Shown here in pieces: positions 3,282 through 12,407 of a stretch of 64,000 nucleotides of DNA; positions within the stretch are counted from its first letter, which is position 1, and the number at the start of each line of letters is the position of its first letter. The stretch comes from Shigella phage ESh18. Position numbers and translations under genes: made by a program. The notes under the pieces were generated by a model. That model was not told the DNA's origin and searched no databases. It was given only the letters and a program-made list of their open reading frames with translations. The stretch is taken from the sequence record ON528728. One strand, given 5' to 3'.

Positions 3282-3336
3282 TTCCTCATGTTATGTCAGT
3301 AAAACTATTGTAACACAACACGAGGGACTTGTAAAC
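3282..3336 (-). promoter_or_regulatory. early promoter plus leader cassette (GTTTACA -35, TGtTACAAT extended -10, GAGGA RBS); copy A of a 54-bp repeat
   Basis: Sequence read directly; near-identical copy at 18629-18684. Confidence 0.5.
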
Positions 3337-5393
3337 TACATCTTGAACTTTTTAGACATTCCGTTGATGTTAACCAAAGAAGCCAAGATTTGAGAAACTT
3401 CGTTTTCCTCTTCTTTTGATTCTTCTACAAGGAATTGATTAAACCCAGCCATTGGACGAACTTCACCAGTTTCCATTAGATGATCGCCATCATATACCGA
3501 TTCTTCTAATTGTTCAGAAGGAGGAACGATTGTGCCTTCGATTAGATACTTATTATAAGCAGTTTCTTTCATCATGTACGTGCTCACTTTATTAATCTTC
3601 AGCAAAATTCCACGCGGTAAAATAACTTCAGCTTCTGATGGAAATCCTGATAAATGACCTGGAACGATAACTTTGATTCGCTCAGCCCCTTTAATTACCA
3701 TACCTACGCTAGTTTCAGCGTCTTCATTCGCATAAGCAGAGTGACTACCCATATGCATTAAATCTTCAGCATCAACAGAACCTTCTCCTTCACCAGAAAA
3801 TACTGCACCGGAATCATCTAGAGCCATATAGTTTTTACCATGCTCACCGAAGATGTTTGGTTTAAGCGACGTGGATACAAAGTTCTTGAAATAGAACATT
3901 TTGTTTTCAATATTATGACGTAAAGTTTTAAAAGTAACTTCTTGTCCACGATAAAGCGTAGTTCCTGGAGGAAGAACTGAACCTTTAGCGAATGCAGAAT
4001 CCATTGTCTCGATGTGTTTAATAGCTCGTTCCATGTATTCTTCACGGGTAGAATCTGGTTTACCCAAGAGGAACGAGTTCATTTCAACATATGAATCTGC
4101 ACAATAATCTTCAATTACATCAGACTCAGCCTGAGTTAATCCTTTTGGAGTTACTTCGGTGCTTGCATATTCATATGCCTGGGCAGCAGATTCATTAATC
4201 AATTTATAAATGCCATTCATGACAAATTGAATAATAGCTGTCTTTTCATCTGGCGTAGCTTTAGAACCTTTAACTAAATCATTAATAATTTTCTTAATAA
4301 CATCAAAGCTATTAGAAATATTAATGTCAGCAAGATCGCTTAAAATTTTATCAGTTTTATAATCAAAGAATTCTTTATTCTTTAAATATTCTTGAGAACC
4401 TTGATATGTTATATCGCTCTGCAACTTGATAGATGGATCACGTAAACGTGCATGGGCCAATGCAATATGATTTCGGAAGTTTTCTAGTTCATAATCGCTA
4501 GATTTAAAACGAGAAGCACTCCTCATACCACCGATAGCTCCTTTGCTGAAGTTTGAACCAATCTGGATAACGCCAGAGTTCATCGGACCTTCTGCTTTAT
4601 ATACCGGAACTTTAGATTCAAACTCTTGATATTTCTTAGCAGCGAAGCTATCACCCTGAAGTGAAGCATCGACAGTAGAATATTGAGCTTGTGCTGCTAA
4701 TCGACGACTAATTTTAGTTTTTTGAATAACAGCTTGATCCGTGCGCTTATCATTTTCTAAAGCAATAGAAGCAGCAACAGCGACAGCTTTAGGAACAGCA
4801 TTACCTGTTTTAACATCTACATAAACATCACCGACCTTCGATTCAACTTTTGTGAATAACTCAGTTGAAATAGGAGGTACACCTGGAATGTCTTCTAAAT
4901 TGGCATTTTTACGGTAAACCATAATATATGCATACTTTTTATCATAGTCCCAGATTTCCTTTAAAAGAACATATCGACCTGCTCCTTTAGTACGTACTAA
5001 ACGGTCAGCAATAACTTGCATTTGACGAGCAGCGCCATTTGTTTTACTTTTTAGTACGCGGAATAGGCATGCGTCAATTTTATACTGTTTCATTGTTTGA
5101 AGAGCAGTATCAAAAACAGCATTAATGACGCCAATTGGATTTCCACCCAAGTTTCTAAGCTTAACCAGCGATAATTTCTCGTTGACACCTATCATTACGA
5201 TATGCATCATTTTATCGCCTGGCTTAACGTTTTTATTCGTATCACCGCCAGAGGTGTATGTACAAAATCTAAATCCAGGAAGCACGCTTTCTTCACCGGC
5301 TTGAATAGCAAAAATTTGTGGTATTTTATGCTTAGGATTTAAGTTAACAACCGGCGCCGAAGCGCCGTCAAATAATTCTGTAATAAGTTCCAT
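3336..5393 (-). CDS. alt: Alt-family ADP-ribosyltransferase (downstream paralog)
   Basis: 685 aa (T4 Alt ~682 aa as I recall); R-S-E type ART motifs YRGQ ... FVSTS ... EAEVILPRG in C-terminal third; N-terminal ~230 aa closely similar to neighbouring paralog. Confidence 0.75.
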   Translation of the reverse strand: MELITELFDGASAPVVNLNPKHKIPQIFAIQAGEESVLPGFRFCTYTSGGDTNKNVKPGDKMMHIVMIGVNEKLSLVKLRNLGGNPIGVINAVFDTALQTMKQYKIDACLFRVLKSKTNGAARQMQVIADRLVRTKGAGRYVLLKEIWDYDKKYAYIMVYRKNANLEDIPGVPPISTELFTKVESKVGDVYVDVKTGNAVPKAVAVAASIALENDKRTDQAVIQKTKISRRLAAQAQYSTVDASLQGDSFAAKKYQEFESKVPVYKAEGPMNSGVIQIGSNFSKGAIGGMRSASRFKSSDYELENFRNHIALAHARLRDPSIKLQSDITYQGSQEYLKNKEFFDYKTDKILSDLADINISNSFDVIKKIINDLVKGSKATPDEKTAIIQFVMNGIYKLINESAAQAYEYASTEVTPKGLTQAESDVIEDYCADSYVEMNSFLLGKPDSTREEYMERAIKHIETMDSAFAKGSVLPPGTTLYRGQEVTFKTLRHNIENKMFYFKNFVSTSLKPNIFGEHGKNYMALDDSGAVFSGEGEGSVDAEDLMHMGSHSAYANEDAETSVGMVIKGAERIKVIVPGHLSGFPSEAEVILPRGILLKINKVSTYMMKETAYNKYLIEGTIVPPSEQLEESVYDGDHLMETGEVRPMAGFNQFLVEESKEEENEVSQILASLVNINGMSKKFKM

Positions 5394-5396
5394 GAT

Positions 5397-7493
5397 TTAT
5401 CCTTGAACGAACTTGTAAGGCATGTTTGTAATATCTATGCAAGACGCAATAATTCCAAGAGATGATTCTACTTTCTGTTTAACATTTGATGAAACAAATG
5501 ATGCAAAGTCAACTCTGTCTTCTATTTCAATATCACCTGTCATTGCAACTACTTCGCCGGTTTCCATTAAACGGTCACCGTCATAAATTACCGATTCGGT
5601 GAGTTCTTCGGTGGTCATAACTTCAGCTTGAATGAGTTTTGTATTATTAGACGTGGTTCCGTCATTATTAGAAGCATCAGTTATTTTATTAACTTTGACC
5701 ATCAATCCGCGCGGTAGAATAACTTCGGCTTCTGTTGCTATTCCGAGACTTCCTGGATATACAACATTAACTTTATGAGCTCCATCAATTGCCCATCCTA
5801 TTTGAACTTTAACGTATTCAGGATTTTCTTTATACGCTCTTATTTCGTTTGGATTAATAGTTATTCCTTCTTCATTTTTATCAACTGTTAATTCATTGCG
5901 AGCTTCTGGTTCTAAAAGACCAATACCAGCATGTGTAATTCCAAAACGTCCAAAAATGATAGGAGTTAAAGAAGTAGATACAAAATTTCTGAAATAGAAC
6001 ACTTTATTTTTAACTAGTGCTTCGTATATAGGAGCAGTCATACTTTGAGCACGATAAACTGTAATGCCTTCCGGTATGCGGTCACCATTTTCAAAAGCTG
6101 AATCTAAATTATTTATAGCAGATTCAATTTCTTTTTCACTCATTACATCATATCGTTCTGGATTGTAACGACCTAAAAGAAGATTATTAATGTCTGTATA
6201 TCCTGAACCACAATATTCTCTAATACCTCGCTTTTGTGATGGAGTATATTTAGAACCATCACGGGCAATAGTAATATCAATCATTGGACCAGCACCAATT
6301 CCAGAAAAGCTATAAATCATTCGTTTGAGGAATTTAGTTTTTGCTGCATTCCATGCATTTTTAGTTATTTCTCCCCAGACTTCATCTGGTTGCCCTTTAC
6401 GAGTTTTATTATGTTTATCAAGCCAATTATCTTTATATTCTTCAAAGAATTTATTAACAGCTGCTGCGTATTTCTCTAAACATTTTATTGAAGTAGTTGG
6501 TTCATTTTTGATTGCGTTAAAAATTACATCTTTAATTTTTTCTGAAACTTCATCAACCTCACTTTTTGAAAAGAATTTATAGTCATAGTGAAGTTCATTC
6601 GCAGTTCCTTCGGCAATAATTTTTGCTGCCTTAGTTTTAGAAGCTAACGAATTAATTCCAAGCTTCATTTCTTCTGCTTCGGGAATTAAAGGAGCGGTAG
6701 CAGGTTTATTGAAATTAGCTGCGGTAGATTCATACTTCTGGAATAATTCACTTTCAAATCTAGAAGATTCCAATGATTGACTTTGCGCAATTGCTCTACG
6801 TGAAATTTTAACTTTAACGATTACAGCTTGGTCAGAACGTTTATCATTTTCTTGCGCAATAGATGCTGCAATTGCCTCATTTTTAGTTACTTGAGCTCCA
6901 GTATCTTTATTGATATAAACATCACCGACCTTCGATTCAACTTTAGTAAAGAGCTCGGTACTAATTTCCGGAACTCCTGGAATGTCTTCTAGTGATACAT
7001 TTTTGCGATGTATAAGAATATATGCATACTTTTTATCGTAATCCCAGAGTTCCTTAAGAAGGACGTATCTGCCACCTGAACGACTGCGGATAAGTCTATC
7101 AGCAATAAGTTGAATTTGACGAGCTTGACCAGCAGTTTTAGACTTAAGAATACGGAGCATGCAGGCATCAATTTTATACTGACGCATCGTTTGCATTGCA
7201 ACAGTAAAAACTGAATTGATATAATTAATTGGGCTTGGACCAAGACCTTTTAATTTAGCAATTGAACCTTTAGCAGTTAATGTAAAAGGAACAATATGCA
7301 TCATTTTATCGCCCATCTTTAAATCACGATTAGTATCACCTCCAGATGTATAGGTACATAAACGAAAGCCTGGTTGTTCAATTGCATCATCAACATGAAC
7401 TGAAAAAATTTGTGGTATTTTCTTCTTTGGATTTAAGTTTGTAATCGGAAGAGTAGTATCTTCGTCAAATAATTCTGTAATAAGTTCCATCAT
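5397..7493 (-). CDS. Alt-family ADP-ribosyltransferase (upstream paralog)
   Basis: 698 aa; shares MELITELFD... N-terminus and YRAQ ... FVSTS ... EAEVILPRG catalytic motifs with 3336-5393; central region divergent; late-promoter motif just upstream. Confidence 0.7.
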   Translation of the reverse strand: MMELITELFDEDTTLPITNLNPKKKIPQIFSVHVDDAIEQPGFRLCTYTSGGDTNRDLKMGDKMMHIVPFTLTAKGSIAKLKGLGPSPINYINSVFTVAMQTMRQYKIDACMLRILKSKTAGQARQIQLIADRLIRSRSGGRYVLLKELWDYDKKYAYILIHRKNVSLEDIPGVPEISTELFTKVESKVGDVYINKDTGAQVTKNEAIAASIAQENDKRSDQAVIVKVKISRRAIAQSQSLESSRFESELFQKYESTAANFNKPATAPLIPEAEEMKLGINSLASKTKAAKIIAEGTANELHYDYKFFSKSEVDEVSEKIKDVIFNAIKNEPTTSIKCLEKYAAAVNKFFEEYKDNWLDKHNKTRKGQPDEVWGEITKNAWNAAKTKFLKRMIYSFSGIGAGPMIDITIARDGSKYTPSQKRGIREYCGSGYTDINNLLLGRYNPERYDVMSEKEIESAINNLDSAFENGDRIPEGITVYRAQSMTAPIYEALVKNKVFYFRNFVSTSLTPIIFGRFGITHAGIGLLEPEARNELTVDKNEEGITINPNEIRAYKENPEYVKVQIGWAIDGAHKVNVVYPGSLGIATEAEVILPRGLMVKVNKITDASNNDGTTSNNTKLIQAEVMTTEELTESVIYDGDRLMETGEVVAMTGDIEIEDRVDFASFVSSNVKQKVESSLGIIASCIDITNMPYKFVQG

Positions 7494-7521: not shown

Positions 7522-7528
7522 AAATTAA

Positions 7529-7543
7529 AGGCCCGAAGGCCTT
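7529..7543 (-). terminator. intrinsic terminator hairpin GGCC-cgaa-GGCC followed by T-run on minus strand
   Basis: Seen directly after stop of 62-aa ORF. Confidence 0.5.
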
Positions 7544-7731
7544 TAGTAATCTAGTGGTAAGAGAGTACGATATATTTCAAACTTTGGTCCTTTTTCATAG
7601 GCATCAAATGTTTCTGTAAATTTATTATAAGCGTATGCATCTACAAATTCGAGAATGACTTGTGATACAGAAGTAGAAACATCTCCGCCTTCTTTTTGAG
7701 CAATGACAATTGTTTCTAAGTAAGCTTTCAT
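7543..7731 (-). CDS. hypothetical small protein
   Basis: 62-aa ORF overlapping ligase stop (coupled). Confidence 0.5.
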   Translation of the reverse strand: MKAYLETIVIAQKEGGDVSTSVSQVILEFVDAYAYNKFTETFDAYEKGPKFEIYRTLLPLDY

Positions 7732-9191
7732 AAACCAGTTACCTCATGAAAATCACCAAATACATCCTCGAATGTATTAGCTTTAGTTTTATCTTCACGT
7801 AAACGAATCGCAATCGGAAGAAATAATTTAACGTAATCAGTGCGGCCATCAGATTTTAACCAACCGTTGCATTCGCACTCTAGAATTTTTCCAATATAAT
7901 AATTTTGGTTTTCCATAATGCGAGTACGGTCAAGTTCATGTGATTTTACGCCGGCTTTGTCTTTTAAGCCTGAACCAGCATTTACTTTAATTTTTCCACA
8001 CTCTGACTCAAGAATAAATCCACCTGCTTTAGTAGGGTCTTTACGGTGAGGATAAATTCCTACAATTTTTAAATCAACATCAATTACTTCTTTAAATTTA
8101 TAGAGATTTTTTGAACGGGCATTTTCCCATAACCCATCAACGTTTTTGAGAATAATACCTTCAAGACCTTGATCAATATACTTTTTGTAAATTACCTTAG
8201 CTTCATCTAGGTTATTTACTACCTGGTTTTCAATTAAAATTACTTTATCATATCCTGATGTCATTTGTTCTAGTTTAGAAAAACGTACATCATATTTTAA
8301 ACGAAACGCCGGAAGACCGTATATTTCTACCAACGGTACATAATCCCAGACCTGAAACTTCATGCATTGTGCTTCTTTTTCAGAAATGGTTCCCTTTAAA
8401 GATTTATTGGCGATGCCATTAGATGCAGTACGAGATTCAGCTACTTCGGCGAATTCTTTAGCTTTACTAATTTCAGGATAAGCATCAAAAAGAAAATCTA
8501 GGCCTTCTGGCTCCTTTTTAACTTGCTCATGGTATACCAATTCGCCATCAATTAACACACCTTCTGGATGAATCTGGCGGGCTTCAGCGGTCATTTTGAT
8601 TAACTCTTCTTTGAGAAGGTCTAATCCTAGATATTCATTACCAGCTCGTGATAAAAGACGAACATCATCTAATTCATCACCTCTGACTTCGGCAAAACAC
8701 CGAGCTCCATCAGCTTTTAATTGGGCAAAGGCTGGAAATTTGATATTCTTATTAATGCCTTTTTCATCATAAGAACTTGCCAGCATTTGAGGTTGTTCAG
8801 GAATTAAACCTGGCCAAACTTTGTTTGCAATAGATACTGAAGCACCGCATTCAAGGTCTCGCATCATCACCCGACGCAAAACTTCAACATCATCCTTTTT
8901 ACCATCGGTGATATATCCAGTTAATTCTTCAATTGCCGCATTTCCAGTCAATTTCCGAGTAGCTAATGTGAATTCAATGAAGTCAAGCATATCGGTAAGA
9001 GTCAACATTCCAAAACTCTGGGTAGCAATACCAGGTTTAGGCCATTTCTTGATATAATACTGTAACCCACGAGAATAAGTTAGACGATATACTCGTTTAA
9101 GCAATTCATTATCTTTATTCTTTTCAAGAATTGCTTGCTTCTGCTTAGTTGAACCAATAGATGCTATTTCGTTCAGAATTTTAAGAATCAT
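7728..9191 (-). CDS. 30: ATP-dependent DNA ligase gp30
   Basis: 487 aa, same as T4 ligase as I recall; active-site lysine context AQLKADGARC (KxDG motif). Confidence 0.9.
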   Translation of the reverse strand: MILKILNEIASIGSTKQKQAILEKNKDNELLKRVYRLTYSRGLQYYIKKWPKPGIATQSFGMLTLTDMLDFIEFTLATRKLTGNAAIEELTGYITDGKKDDVEVLRRVMMRDLECGASVSIANKVWPGLIPEQPQMLASSYDEKGINKNIKFPAFAQLKADGARCFAEVRGDELDDVRLLSRAGNEYLGLDLLKEELIKMTAEARQIHPEGVLIDGELVYHEQVKKEPEGLDFLFDAYPEISKAKEFAEVAESRTASNGIANKSLKGTISEKEAQCMKFQVWDYVPLVEIYGLPAFRLKYDVRFSKLEQMTSGYDKVILIENQVVNNLDEAKVIYKKYIDQGLEGIILKNVDGLWENARSKNLYKFKEVIDVDLKIVGIYPHRKDPTKAGGFILESECGKIKVNAGSGLKDKAGVKSHELDRTRIMENQNYYIGKILECECNGWLKSDGRTDYVKLFLPIAIRLREDKTKANTFEDVFGDFHEVTGL

Positions 9192-9457
9192 TGTTCATCC
9201 TTTAGAGTTTGGTTTACAGCTCTATTATAAATCAATTCATCATTAAGCTCAGTCAAAGACCTATGATATGTAGTTCTAACTTTATTTCCTTGCATCCAGT
9301 GCTTGATATAAATGAAACCTTGCTCTACACATTTTTTAAAAATTCGTTCGTCTTTTTGAGCTCGGAATTCTGGATTGCATCTAAAAAATTGATTTACGTG
9401 ACCATAATCACGTGTAGTATTACCTTCATTTTCATAAATAGTGTGAACGACAAACAT
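9188..9457 (-). CDS. hypothetical protein (30.1-position)
   Basis: 89-aa ORF, overlapping neighbours. Confidence 0.5.
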   Translation of the reverse strand: MFVVHTIYENEGNTTRDYGHVNQFFRCNPEFRAQKDERIFKKCVEQGFIYIKHWMQGNKVRTTYHRSLTELNDELIYNRAVNQTLKDEQ

Positions 9458-10320
9458 TAGAATGCTCCTTGGAAAATATTATCACCACTAGTAAATCTAT
9501 TAAAATACCCTGCATCACCAGGCTTAGTATAACTCCACGTATGGAATGGATTCATATGATACGGGTGTGTATAATATGGATTATATGGATGTGTATAATA
9601 TGGATTATACGGATTAAATCCAGGAGTTCTCCAGGTAGTGTTCCAACGAAAAGAATCGTTTTTAACCATCTTCTCAATTACATCTTTTATAGCTTTTTCA
9701 CTATCAAAACTTTCTTTATTTTCCTTCGGTGAAAAAAGCTTATTTTCTACATCATTCCATGTATAAACTCGCTGCGCAGTTTTTGGAATATTGTCACGCT
9801 CTCCTCGAGCCATCCAATAAACCGGAACATTTAATATTTCACTCGCATGATCGCAGTGGTGAGCAAGATCGTCAATATAACAAATTACGTTATATTTCTC
9901 TTTTGCCTTTTTGAATAACTCTTCTTTTGAAGAATCATGACCACACATCATTACTTCTGAGAAGGCACCAGGAAAAAGAGCATTCAAATTAAATTGACGA
10001 TTCAACAGAGCGTCAATAGAATCACCCAATGCTGTAACAGCTACAAAATTATAATCTTCTTTTAATTTGTTAATTACACACAGAGCATCTTTATACGGAG
10101 ACAAGTAACGAATAAAATCTGAACGATTGTATTTTTCAATTAACTTGACGCCAAGTTCTTCATCACAATTAAATAGTTTACCTGGAGAAATAAATTTCTC
10201 ATCTTGGATCATTTTTAAAATATGTTCTAACGGAAGATTATATTTCTGAGCAAAATAAGGAAGACCTGATTGCCAGCTTAAACATACTCCATCAATATCA
10301 GTTAAAATAGTAGGCTTCAT
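9457..10320 (-). CDS. HAD-superfamily hydrolase-like protein (putative phosphatase/nucleotidase) with repeat-rich Tyr/Pro/His C-terminal tail
   Basis: 287 aa; N-terminal LTDIDGV motif resembling HAD motif I (DxDG[TV]); C-terminal NPYNPYYTHPYNPYYTHPY encoded by 24-bp tandem DNA repeat. Confidence 0.55.
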   Translation of the reverse strand: MKPTILTDIDGVCLSWQSGLPYFAQKYNLPLEHILKMIQDEKFISPGKLFNCDEELGVKLIEKYNRSDFIRYLSPYKDALCVINKLKEDYNFVAVTALGDSIDALLNRQFNLNALFPGAFSEVMMCGHDSSKEELFKKAKEKYNVICYIDDLAHHCDHASEILNVPVYWMARGERDNIPKTAQRVYTWNDVENKLFSPKENKESFDSEKAIKDVIEKMVKNDSFRWNTTWRTPGFNPYNPYYTHPYNPYYTHPYHMNPFHTWSYTKPGDAGYFNRFTSGDNIFQGAF

Positions 10321-10781
10321 AGAGAGTCTCTTAATAGGTTTAACACATCAATAAATTCAGCTTCGGTTAGTATTGTATCATCTTTTGTTAGACCACTAGC
10401 CATGCTGTGCTTCAAAACTTTTCCTTTCGAGGCTAGTAATGCATCACGAAAGCCCTTGTTTTGAATCGCTGCTTCAAAATATGCATTTGTGTATAATTCT
10501 TTCCACGCCGGGGAGTATCTTGAAAACGGAACTCCGAGCCAGAAGAGGGTCCCACGGTCCTGAGCTCTTGCATAAGACCTTCCAGCTTGCTGTGCGGCAA
10601 GCCCGGATAACCCAAATATACGACGTTGTTGTTCAACATTTTTCACCTTACACCCTTGGAGGAATCCTTCGAGACCTCCAAATTGAATACCATCCATGAC
10701 GAAAGGCCATTGGGCGAAATTACTTAATGCACATGATGGCCACCTAAAATTGCTTCTAATCTCTAACTCAGACATTTTCAA
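10317..10781 (-). CDS. NADAR (YbiA/DUF1768-like) domain protein
   Basis: 154 aa; motifs SNFAQWPF..DG and LEGFLQGCKV, FRDALLAS resemble the E. coli YbiA/NADAR signature as I recall it. Confidence 0.55.
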   Translation of the reverse strand: MKMSELEIRSNFRWPSCALSNFAQWPFVMDGIQFGGLEGFLQGCKVKNVEQQRRIFGLSGLAAQQAGRSYARAQDRGTLFWLGVPFSRYSPAWKELYTNAYFEAAIQNKGFRDALLASKGKVLKHSMASGLTKDDTILTEAEFIDVLNLLRDSL

Positions 10782-10974
10782 TGCTTATAATTTCAACATC
10801 AGCCCAATGACCATAGCAAGGAAGACGAAATTCAACTGGCCAGTTAGGGTCCTTTTCTAATATAATAGACTTAACTTGTGGTTCTTCATGTTCATCAGTA
10901 TATGGATTTTTATCTGTTACTTTATATGTGACCTTAATGTACTGAATTCCAAAAATCTTATTAATTATATTCAT
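10768..10974 (-). CDS. hypothetical protein
   Basis: 68-aa ORF in 30.x cluster. Confidence 0.45.
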   Translation of the reverse strand: MNIINKIFGIQYIKVTYKVTDKNPYTDEHEEPQVKSIILEKDPNWPVEFRLPCYGHWADVEIISIENV

Positions 10975-11168
10975 ACTAATTCCTTTAATCCGTAAATAGG
11001 AGATAATTCATCACCCATGCGAAGGTCTTCATTTCCATCTACCCAGGAAACAATATAAGCCTCTTTTATTTGAATACCACTCCATTTAAATGGAGGTAGA
11101 ACCTTAGAAATTAATCCAGGTATACCAATTCCCTTTAATTCAACAGTTTGACCTAAAAAGAATTTCAT
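10971..11168 (-). CDS. hypothetical protein
   Basis: 65-aa ORF, coupled to neighbours. Confidence 0.45.
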   Translation of the reverse strand: MKFFLGQTVELKGIGIPGLISKVLPPFKWSGIQIKEAYIVSWVDGNEDLRMGDELSPIYGLKELV

Positions 11169-12361: not shown

Positions 12362-12387
12362 TTATGCAATCTTTGGAAAATAAAAAA

Positions 12388-12407
12388 GGACTCCCGAAGG
12401 AGTCCTC
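12388..12407 (-). terminator. intrinsic terminator GGACTCC-cgaa-GGAGTCC followed by T-run (minus strand)
   Basis: Perfect 7-bp stem directly after stop of small basic ORF. Confidence 0.6.

What the first reader, a model, noticed from the sequence alone, without database searches (positions are those of the whole stretch)
9457..10781. NADAR/YbiA-like gene coupled to a HAD-like hydrolase downstream of DNA ligase
The 154-aa ORF carries SNFAQWP...DG and FLQGCKV/FRDALLAS motifs resembling the NADAR (YbiA, DUF1768) family, whose members include N-glycosidases and ADP-ribosyl hydrolases that reverse ADP-ribosylation of guanine bases. It overlaps (coupled) a 287-aa ORF with a HAD-like DIDGV motif. 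The same window encodes four ADP-ribosyltransferases (two Alt-like, ModA, ModB). A phage NADAR could act as an ADP-ribose eraser, for example countering DarT-type DNA ADP-ribosylating defence, or could process nucleotide-derived metabolites.
Basis: partly seen in the sequence, partly recalled or inferred. Interest (0 to 1): 0.55.

Follow-up and report, generated by a model that had tools for sequence, protein, structure and literature searches.

The report
Known T4 anti-DarT NADAR plus HAD
The small gene is the already characterised T4 enzyme AdfN (gp30.3), which strips defensive ADP-ribose marks off phage DNA, and its overlapping neighbour is an uncharacterised HAD-type phosphatase that published transposon data show is not needed for that job.

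Summary
The window is a Tequatrovirus (T4-like) genome. The 154-aa ORF is T4 gene 30.3: Pfam Phage_30_3 at E 2.7e-70 and 150/152 residues identical to T4. Its likely true start is the ATG at 10775, giving 152 aa. It has the NADAR fold; the top three PDB matches are YbiA, PnNADAR and G. lovleyi NADAR. It keeps the catalytic E36, K43 and H123 and the C-terminal helix.

T4 gp30.3 has already been published as AdfN, a guanine-specific DNA ADP-ribosylglycohydrolase that defeats DarTG1.

The 4-base overlap with 30.3 is real but ordinary. All seven junctions from 30.6 to alt.1 overlap.

- Of 78 related loci with 30.2, 72 have DNA ligase just downstream and only 37 have the NADAR nearby.
- Of 80 loci with the NADAR, only 20 have 30.2 nearby.
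- Published T4 Tn-seq on a DarTG1 host gives 30.3 a log2FC of -7.25 and 30.2 a log2FC of -0.12.

The two genes are not a functional pair for this defence. Both lie transcriptionally upstream of ligase, not downstream.

The parts
10317..10775 (-). Gene 30.3 / adfN, 152 aa from the ATG at 10775. It is a NADAR-superfamily DNA ADP-ribosylglycohydrolase of the phage gp30.3 class. The mechanical ORF runs to the TTG at 10781.
   Evidence: Pfam PF08010 at E 2.7e-70. 150/152 identical to T4 gp30.3. AF2 model pLDDT 92.7. Foldseek top three hits are 2b3w YbiA, 8bau PnNADAR and 8bat G. lovleyi NADAR. T4 and ESh17 annotate a 459-nt CDS.
10668..10670 (-). Codon GAA for E36, the catalytic glutamate of NADAR.
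   Evidence: Read from the sequence. Invariant in 61 family members. The E36A mutant of T4 AdfN is inactive in vitro (PMC11825919). Equivalent to PnNADAR E43 and E. coli C7 E88.
10647..10649 (-). Codon AAG for K43, the phosphate-coordinating lysine of NADAR.
   Evidence: Read from the sequence. At least 90% conserved. The K43A mutant of T4 AdfN is impaired. Equivalent to PnNADAR K50 and E. coli C7 K95.
10407..10409 (-). Codon CAC for H123. This last-strand histidine marks the phage gp30.3 class; YbiA has Glu and DarG1 has Asp at this position.
   Evidence: Invariant in the family alignment. It follows strand 120-122 in the model. The class-defining role is stated in PMC11125620 and PMC11543638.
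10317..10362 (-). C-terminal helix of AdfN (residues about 138-152) plus the stop codon. It is intact here.
   Evidence: Helix 138-151 in the model. Full-length match to T4. The RB69 allele that lacks the last 15 residues is defective.
10317..10320 (-). ATGA overlap of the 30.3 stop codon and the 30.2 start codon.
   Evidence: The same kind of overlap occurs at every junction from 30.6 to alt.1.
9457..10320 (-). Gene 30.2, 287 aa: a HAD-superfamily phosphatase-like protein of unknown substrate.
9736..10320 (-). HAD catalytic core with a helical C1-type cap (residues 1 to about 195). Motif I is D8-x-D10 (10291-10299), motif II is T96 (10033-10035), motif III is K132 (9925-9927) and motif IV is D150-D151 (9868-9873).
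   Evidence: D8, D10, G11 and K132 are invariant; T96, D150 and D151 are at least 90% conserved in 59 homologues. Core pLDDT is mostly above 93. The motifs sit at the ends of strands 4-7, 91-96 and 145-150 and before helix 133-142. Codons were read.
9460..9735 (-). Variable C-terminal tail of gp30.2 (residues about 196-287): one helix followed by a disordered Pro/Tyr/His-rich stretch.
   Evidence: pLDDT is below 50 for residues 249-287. Tail length and sequence vary among homologues, and many stop near residue 200.
9559..9614 (.). 24-bp tandem repeat, 2.3 copies, encoding the repeated YNPYYTHP. It is 30 bp longer than the same region in T4.
   Evidence: Tandem Repeats Finder score 98. DNA alignment with T4 shows a 30-bp in-frame insertion.
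9188..9457 (-). Gene 30.1 (DUF3045), the next gene downstream in the same chain.
   Evidence: Pfam PF11243 at E 1.2e-64. T4 annotation.
7728..9191 (-). Gene 30, ATP-dependent DNA ligase. It is the conserved downstream partner of 30.2.
   Evidence: Pfam PF01068 at E 1.1e-32. A ligase lies just downstream of the 30.2 homologue in 72 of 78 IMG/VR loci.
10768..10974 (-). Gene 30.4 (68 aa). Its stop codon overlaps the 30.3 start codon.
   Evidence: PHROG 2042. T4 annotation. Insertions in T4 30.4 are mildly depleted on DarTG1, most simply a polar effect on 30.3.

Best explanation
Region 9457-10781 holds two separate early genes of a T4-like phage.

Gene 30.3 is adfN, an orphan NADAR enzyme. When a host DarT1 toxin ADP-ribosylates guanines in phage DNA and blocks replication, AdfN hydrolyses the N-glycosidic bond between ADP-ribose and the guanine. 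E36, K43 and H123 form its active site. The intact base is restored, free ADP-ribose is released, and replication proceeds. This mechanism is shown experimentally for the 99%-identical T4 protein and is transferred here by near-identity.

Gene 30.2 encodes a Mg2+-dependent HAD phosphomonoesterase with a helical cap. The cap suggests a small phosphorylated substrate, most plausibly a (deoxy)nucleotide. A disordered tail follows the catalytic core. The enzyme class rests on fold and motifs, and the substrate is inference only. Gene 30.2 is a near-core T4-like gene whose conserved neighbour is the DNA ligase gene. It is dispensable for growth on E. coli K-12 in LB, shows no fitness change in M9 medium, and is not needed for AdfN to defeat DarTG1. 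The stop/start overlap with 30.3 reflects the tight packing of this early gene chain, not a shared function.
For: Identity of 30.3:
- Pfam PF08010 at E 2.7e-70.
- 150/152 identical to T4 gp30.3.
- E36 and H123 are invariant and K43 is at least 90% conserved in 61 homologues.
- AF2 pLDDT 92.7.
- The only meaningful PDB fold matches are the three NADAR structures 2b3w, 8bau and 8bat.
- A family profile finds only YbiA in the PDB, at E 0.016.

Published function of T4 gp30.3/AdfN:
- Genetics, E36A and K43A mutants, and an in-vitro dot blot (PMC11825919).
- In-vitro guanosine-ADPr hydrolysis (PMC11125620; PMC12945103).
- Tn-seq on a DarTG1 host: log2FC -7.25, adjusted p 0.

Gene 30.2:
- HAD motifs are conserved.
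- The core model is confident.
- Weak Pfam HAD hits in 15 of 59 family members and NT5C hits in 11 of 59.
- A family profile finds mouse deoxyribonucleotidase 2jao as the top PDB hit, at E 0.045.

No functional coupling:
- Only 20 of 80 loci with 30.3 carry 30.2 within 6 kb.
- Of 78 loci with 30.2, 72 have ligase just downstream and 37 have 30.3.
- Several genomes carry the two genes about 58 kb apart.
- T4 30.2 is non-essential, with 72/72 TA sites hit.
- 30.2 is unaffected by DarTG1 (log2FC -0.12, p 0.61) and by minimal medium.
Against: - No activity was measured for the proteins of this particular phage.
- The protein differs from T4 AdfN at two residues (L114, M125), which were not tested.
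- AdfN from T4 does not neutralise DarT1 in uninfected cells or rescue T5 or Bas25. Something specific to T-even infection is still missing from the mechanism.
- For 30.2, no Pfam model reaches threshold on this sequence.
- The structural neighbours of 30.2 span many HAD subfamily I enzymes with different substrates, so the nucleotide substrate is a guess.
- The Tn-seq result excludes only a non-redundant role of 30.2.
- Both genes occur in roughly the same 1,400-1,500 GenBank phages. Co-occurrence at the genome level therefore cannot be used either way.
Confidence: 0.86

Rival explanations
1. The NADAR and the HAD protein form a two-enzyme module. Either gp30.2 is the unknown T-even-specific factor that AdfN needs, or it processes the released ADP-ribose or ribose phosphate.
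For: The two genes overlap by 4 bases. They are adjacent, or within about 1.5 kb, in 37 of 78 loci that carry 30.2. AdfN from T4 works fully only during T-even infection, and the authors suggest an additional T-even protein. RB69, which AdfN rescues in trans, has its own 30.2 at 87% identity.
Against: Insertions at 71 TA sites in T4 30.2 show no depletion on a DarTG1 host (log2FC -0.12, p 0.61), while 30.3 drops 150-fold. 60 of 80 NADAR loci have no 30.2 within 6 kb, and many genomes place the two genes about 58 kb apart. NADAR hydrolysis restores an intact guanine, so no follow-up repair chemistry is required. Overlapping junctions are universal in this gene chain.
Confidence: 0.04
2. gp30.2 is a DNA-end 3'-phosphatase that prepares nicks for the adjacent ATP-dependent DNA ligase. 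This would be analogous to the HAD phosphatase domain of T4 polynucleotide kinase working with RNA ligase.
For: A ligase gene lies immediately downstream on the same strand in 72 of 78 loci, often abutting or overlapping. The DxD catalytic motif is the phosphotransferase type. That HAD-type 3'-phosphatases heal ends is established knowledge of PNK/PNKP enzymes and was not tested here.
Against: The model shows a roughly 70-residue helical cap between motifs I and II. In HAD enzymes such a cap usually restricts the active site to small substrates, whereas polynucleotide phosphatases are capless. The nearest sequence-level relatives are deoxyribonucleotidases. Ligase is essential in T4 but 30.2 is fully dispensable. 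The adjacency may simply be inherited T4-like synteny.
Confidence: 0.1
3. The main substrates of the NADAR are soluble ADP-ribose derivatives or riboflavin-pathway intermediates, as for YbiA, rather than ADP-ribosylated DNA.
For: YbiA, the best structural match, is an N-glycosidase of riboflavin intermediates. [quoted passage not shown]
Against: There is direct in-vitro removal of ADP-ribose from DNA by T4 gp30.3, plus genetic necessity and sufficiency against DarTG1. The class-specific His replaces the YbiA Glu.
Confidence: 0.05

Closest known systems
AdfN (anti-DarT factor NADAR) = bacteriophage T4 gp30.3; Pfam PF08010 Phage_30_3
   Same: 150/152 identical residues, the same length, the same E36/K43/H123, the same C-terminal helix and the same genomic position between 30.4 and 30.2.
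   Different: Two conservative substitutions relative to T4 (Q114L, I125M). No experimental data exist for this particular phage.
DarG1, the NADAR antitoxin of DarTG1 systems (for example G. lovleyi NADAR, PDB 8bat)
   Same: The same fold and the same Glu/Lys catalytic pair. The same reaction, removal of ADP-ribose from guanine N2 in DNA.
   Different: AdfN is an orphan with no DarT partner. It has His where DarG1 has Asp in the last strand and consists of the core domain only. The T4 protein cannot replace DarG1 in uninfected cells. Sequence identity is about 16%.
E. coli YbiA (PDB 2b3w; TIGR02464 / Pfam NADAR PF08719)
   Same: It is the best structural match (TM 0.68, E 6.5e-5). It is also the only PDB sequence found by the family profile, through the shared SNF...E..Q..K motif.
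   Different: Identity is 18%. YbiA has Glu instead of His at the last-strand position. It is linked to riboflavin intermediates and swarming, not phage counter-defence.
5'(3')-deoxyribonucleotidases (NT5C/NT5M, Pfam PF06941; PDB 2jao, 2i7d, 3bwv), as comparators for gp30.2
   Same: HAD fold with a helical cap, a DxDGV motif I and a DD motif IV. They are the top PDB hit of the gp30.2 family profile, are among the best Foldseek hits (TM to target 0.63-0.70), and give weak PF06941 hits in 11 of 59 family members.

Membership tests
NADAR superfamily, phage gp30.3 class (AdfN) | Significant match to the family profile (Pfam PF08010 Phage_30_3) | tested here: met
   E 2.7e-70, 235 bits against a cut-off of 36, covering profile positions 1-138 of 138.
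NADAR superfamily, phage gp30.3 class (AdfN) | Sequence-level link to canonical NADAR/YbiA models (PF08719, TIGR02464) | tested here: inconclusive
   TIGR02464 gives E 0.17, below its cut-off. The family profile against the PDB finds only YbiA, at E 0.016. One family member (P0082) carries a precomputed PF08719 hit. Several JGI homologues are named YbiA/DUF1768 by their source.
NADAR superfamily, phage gp30.3 class (AdfN) | NADAR fold: a helical core flanked by small beta-hairpins | tested here: met
   AF2 model with pLDDT 92.7 and pTM 0.89. The Foldseek top three hits are the NADAR structures 2b3w, 8bau and 8bat with probability 0.97-1.00, and the next hit has probability 0.04.
NADAR superfamily, phage gp30.3 class (AdfN) | Catalytic Glu and Lys, plus a last-strand His specific to the phage class | tested here: met
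   E36, K43 and H123 are present. E36 and H123 are invariant and K43 is at least 90% conserved. Their roles are taken from PMC11825919, PMC11125620 and PMC11543638.
NADAR superfamily, phage gp30.3 class (AdfN) | Intact C-terminal helix, which is lost in the defective RB69 allele | tested here: met
   Full-length 152 aa. Helix 138-151 in the model. The RB69 truncation is described.
NADAR superfamily, phage gp30.3 class (AdfN) | Guanine-ADP-ribose glycohydrolase activity and protection from DarTG1 | not testable with these tools
   Shown for the 99%-identical T4 protein in published work. It was not measured for this phage.
DarTG1 toxin-antitoxin system | NADAR gene paired with a DarT ADP-ribosyltransferase gene | tested here: not met
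   The flanking genes are 30.4 and 30.2, with no ART domain. The window's ARTs (Alt, Alt-like, ModA, ModB) are protein-targeting T4 enzymes located elsewhere. This agrees with the published description of AdfN as an orphan antitoxin.
HAD (haloacid dehalogenase-like) superfamily, phosphatase type (for gp30.2) | Rossmann-like HAD core fold | tested here: met
HAD (haloacid dehalogenase-like) superfamily, phosphatase type (for gp30.2) | Four catalytic motifs: DxDx(T/V), S/T, K/R and DD. The second Asp of motif I marks phosphotransferases. | tested here: met
   D8, D10, G11 and K132 are invariant. T96, D150 and D151 are at least 90% conserved in 59 homologues. They lie at the expected strand ends in the model.
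HAD (haloacid dehalogenase-like) superfamily, phosphatase type (for gp30.2) | Match to a curated HAD profile above threshold | tested here: not met
   No Pfam or NCBIfam hit for this protein, even at E 0.1-1. Only weak hits occur in some relatives: PF00702 in 15 of 59 (best E 3.5e-4) and PF13419 in 8 of 59.
5'(3')-deoxyribonucleotidase family (NT5C, PF06941) | Profile match and a specific structural affinity | tested here: inconclusive
HAD (haloacid dehalogenase-like) superfamily, phosphatase type (for gp30.2) | Mg2+-dependent phosphatase activity on a defined substrate | not testable with these tools
   No biochemical report on gp30.2 was found.

The most novel reading that the evidence does not exclude
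gp30.2 is an uncharacterised, near-core T4-like HAD phosphatase that is almost always encoded directly in front of the DNA ligase gene. Its disordered tail could tether it to the replication or repair machinery. It might hydrolyse a specific nucleotide, such as a damaged, modified or defence-derived nucleotide or a DNA 3'-phosphate end. That would make it a new conditional phage function visible only on hosts or conditions not yet screened. A weaker variant is that it is a redundant helper of AdfN.
Probability: 0.1. Interest if true: 0.5.

Novelty: already known. Interest (0 to 1): 0.14.

Why it matters
For the NADAR there is nothing new to claim. It is T4 AdfN, whose fold, catalytic residues, in-vitro activity and anti-DarTG1 role were published between 2023 and 2026.

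The practical value is annotation. GenBank still labels this gene 'hypothetical protein' in the closest record examined and in nearly all phage records listed by the searches.

The only open item is gp30.2. It is a well-conserved HAD phosphatase found in about 1,400 sequenced T4-like phages, it sits next to the ligase gene, and it has no known substrate or phenotype.

The analysis also removes an attractive candidate. gp30.2 is not, at least not on its own, the unidentified T-even-specific factor that AdfN requires.

Tried and rejected
- Single-sequence searches of the PDB gave only chance-level hits for both proteins. Family profiles were needed.
It was rebuilt without that row.
- The sigma-70 promoter scan showed no enrichment: 21 sites against 21.3 expected. 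It is not used. Only two terminator-like hairpins, at 12407-12386 and 7545-7526, are noted as possible bounds of the transcription unit.
- Literature searches for gp30.2 found nothing relevant.
- Genome-level co-occurrence of 30.2 and 30.3 was considered as evidence of coupling. It was rejected because both are near-core genes of T4-like phages with the same genus distribution.
- The contexts of the few distant 30.2 homologues without an adjacent ligase (L151, L155-L158) lie among other T4-like replication and early genes and gave no functional clue.
- A compensated frameshift in the 30.2 tail was considered. It was rejected because the DNA alignment shows an in-frame 30-bp repeat expansion plus point changes.
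- The idea that gp30.2 is the missing AdfN cofactor was considered seriously. It was rejected on the published Tn-seq data.

Full report
**What is there**

The window is a T4-like (Tequatrovirus) genome. Region 9100-11000 is 99.1% identical to Shigella phage ESh17 and matches 680 phage records.

On the minus strand the genes run 30.6, 30.5, 30.4, 30.3, 30.2, 30.1, 30 (DNA ligase), alt.1, exactly as in T4. The two ORFs of the finding are at the stated coordinates and share four bases, ATGA at 10317-10320.

Three details need correcting.
- The real start of the small gene is almost certainly the ATG at 10775, giving 152 aa. T4 and ESh17 annotate it this way, and it makes the residue numbers agree with the literature.
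- The pair lies upstream of the ligase gene in the direction of transcription, not downstream.
- Stop/start overlap is the rule in this chain, since all seven junctions from 30.6 to alt.1 overlap. It does not single out this pair.

There are two Alt-like proteins with the PF03496 domain, 41% identical to each other, plus ModA and ModB at 99% and 97% identity to T4.

**The small gene**

It matches Pfam PF08010 (Phage_30_3) at E 2.7e-70 and is 150/152 identical to T4 gp30.3.

Direct sequence links to canonical NADAR models are weak. TIGR02464 gives E 0.17. A profile of 62 homologues finds only E. coli YbiA in the PDB, at E 0.016, through the shared SNF...E..Q..K motif.

The structure settles the question. 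An AlphaFold model built on 61 homologues has pLDDT 92.7. Its only meaningful PDB matches are the three NADAR structures YbiA 2b3w, Phytophthora NADAR 8bau and Geobacter lovleyi NADAR 8bat. The fourth hit has probability 0.04.

In the family alignment E36 and H123 are invariant and K43 is nearly so. These correspond to three published residues: the catalytic Glu, the phosphate-binding Lys, and the last-strand residue. That last residue is Glu in YbiA, Asp in DarG1 and His in the phage gp30.3 class. The C-terminal helix, whose loss cripples the RB69 allele, is intact.

**What is already published**

T4 gp30.3 was placed in the NADAR superfamily bioinformatically. It was then shown to hydrolyse guanosine-ADP-ribose on DNA in vitro (PMC11125620; PMC12945103).

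It was named AdfN after genetic mapping, deletion, complementation, E36A and K43A mutants and a dot-blot assay. These showed that it removes DarT1-installed ADP-ribose from phage DNA and makes T-even phages resistant to DarTG1 (PMC11825919). A genome-wide transposon screen in T4 confirmed this: insertions in 30.3 fall by log2FC -7.25 on a DarTG1 host.

**The larger gene**

It is T4 gene 30.2, at 90% identity. The difference is concentrated in the tail, which carries a 30-bp in-frame expansion of a 24-bp repeat.

No curated profile hits this protein, and PHROG 420 is of unknown function. Even so, 59 homologues keep the four HAD phosphatase motifs:
- D8-x-D10-G11 (motif I)
- T96 (motif II)
- K132 (motif III)
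- D150-D151 (motif IV)

The model has a confident core covering residues 1 to about 195. A helical insert lies between motifs I and II, and the tail is disordered.

Weak sequence signals point the same way. The family profile's top PDB hit is mouse deoxyribonucleotidase at E 0.045. Pfam HAD and NT5C give weak hits in 15 and 11 of 59 relatives.

I conclude that it is a HAD phosphomonoesterase. A nucleotide-like small substrate is the most likely kind, but that is inference.

**Are the two genes a functional pair?**

I fetched 80 IMG/VR loci encoding gp30.3 relatives and 78 encoding gp30.2 relatives, then searched the flanks with family profiles.
- Only 20 of 80 NADAR loci have 30.2 within 6 kb.
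- 72 of 78 loci with 30.2 have the DNA ligase gene immediately downstream on the same strand, and only 37 have the NADAR upstream.
- Several complete genomes carry both genes about 58 kb apart, for example the contig behind L029 and L096.

Both genes occur in about 1,450-1,500 GenBank phages with the same genus spread. Genome-level co-occurrence therefore only says that both are near-core T4-like genes.

The decisive evidence is published Tn-seq.
- T4 30.2 tolerates insertions at all 72 TA sites.
- On a DarTG1 host it is unaffected: log2FC -0.12, p 0.61.
- It is also unaffected in minimal medium.

This matters because AdfN from T4 works fully only during T-even infection, and the authors suspect an unknown T-even helper. 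gp30.2 looked like the natural candidate. The data say that, at least on its own, it is not.

**Verdict**

The main point is already known, and the suggested coupling is not supported. What remains open is modest: the substrate and role of a widely conserved, dispensable HAD phosphatase that travels with the ligase gene.

Noticed in passing
window 9559-9614 (gene 30.2 tail): A 24-bp tandem repeat (2.3 copies) encodes a repeated YNPYYTHP. This phage has 30 bp more than T4 here. The tail is predicted to be disordered and varies widely in length among homologues.
   Followed up: partly
window 3336-5393 (-) and 5397-7493 (-): There are two tandem Alt-like ADP-ribosyltransferase genes (685 and 698 aa), 41% identical, both with PF03496. 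T4 has a single alt gene followed by the small ORFs alt.-1 to alt.-3 at this position. ESh17 has the same pair, with the second copy annotated as hypothetical.
   Followed up: partly
window 10433-10639 (-): A 68-aa ORF lies in another reading frame inside 30.3. It corresponds to the T4 annotation 30.3' (internal translation in a different frame). Whether it is expressed here was not examined.
   Followed up: no
window 10768-10974 (-), gene 30.4: In the published T4 Tn-seq, insertions in 30.4 are mildly but significantly depleted on DarTG1 (log2FC -1.79, adjusted p 0.014). The stop codon of 30.4 overlaps the 30.3 start codon, so a polar effect is the simplest explanation. A helper role of the 68-aa protein is not excluded.
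   Followed up: partly
window 7526-7545 and 12386-12407 (- strand): Two terminator-like hairpins with T runs bracket the chain of overlapping genes from 30.8 to alt.1. No such site lies between 30.3 and the ligase gene. These are pattern matches only.
   Followed up: no
IMG/VR loci L029/L096, L079/L100, L056/L101, L073/L103, L064/L114, L043/L115: In several complete T4-like genomes the NADAR gene and the 30.2-ligase pair lie about 58 kb apart. The NADAR has evidently moved, or been re-acquired, relative to the ligase neighbourhood during T4-like evolution.
   Followed up: partly
alignment A3, C-terminal columns (homologues of gp30.2): A subset of gp30.2 homologues shares a short C-terminal motif, roughly G-(T)-G-I-E-Y-L-x-x-Q-P-T. 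T4 has GGIEYLYNRPT, but this window has the diverged GDAGYFNRFT. The meaning is unknown.
   Followed up: no
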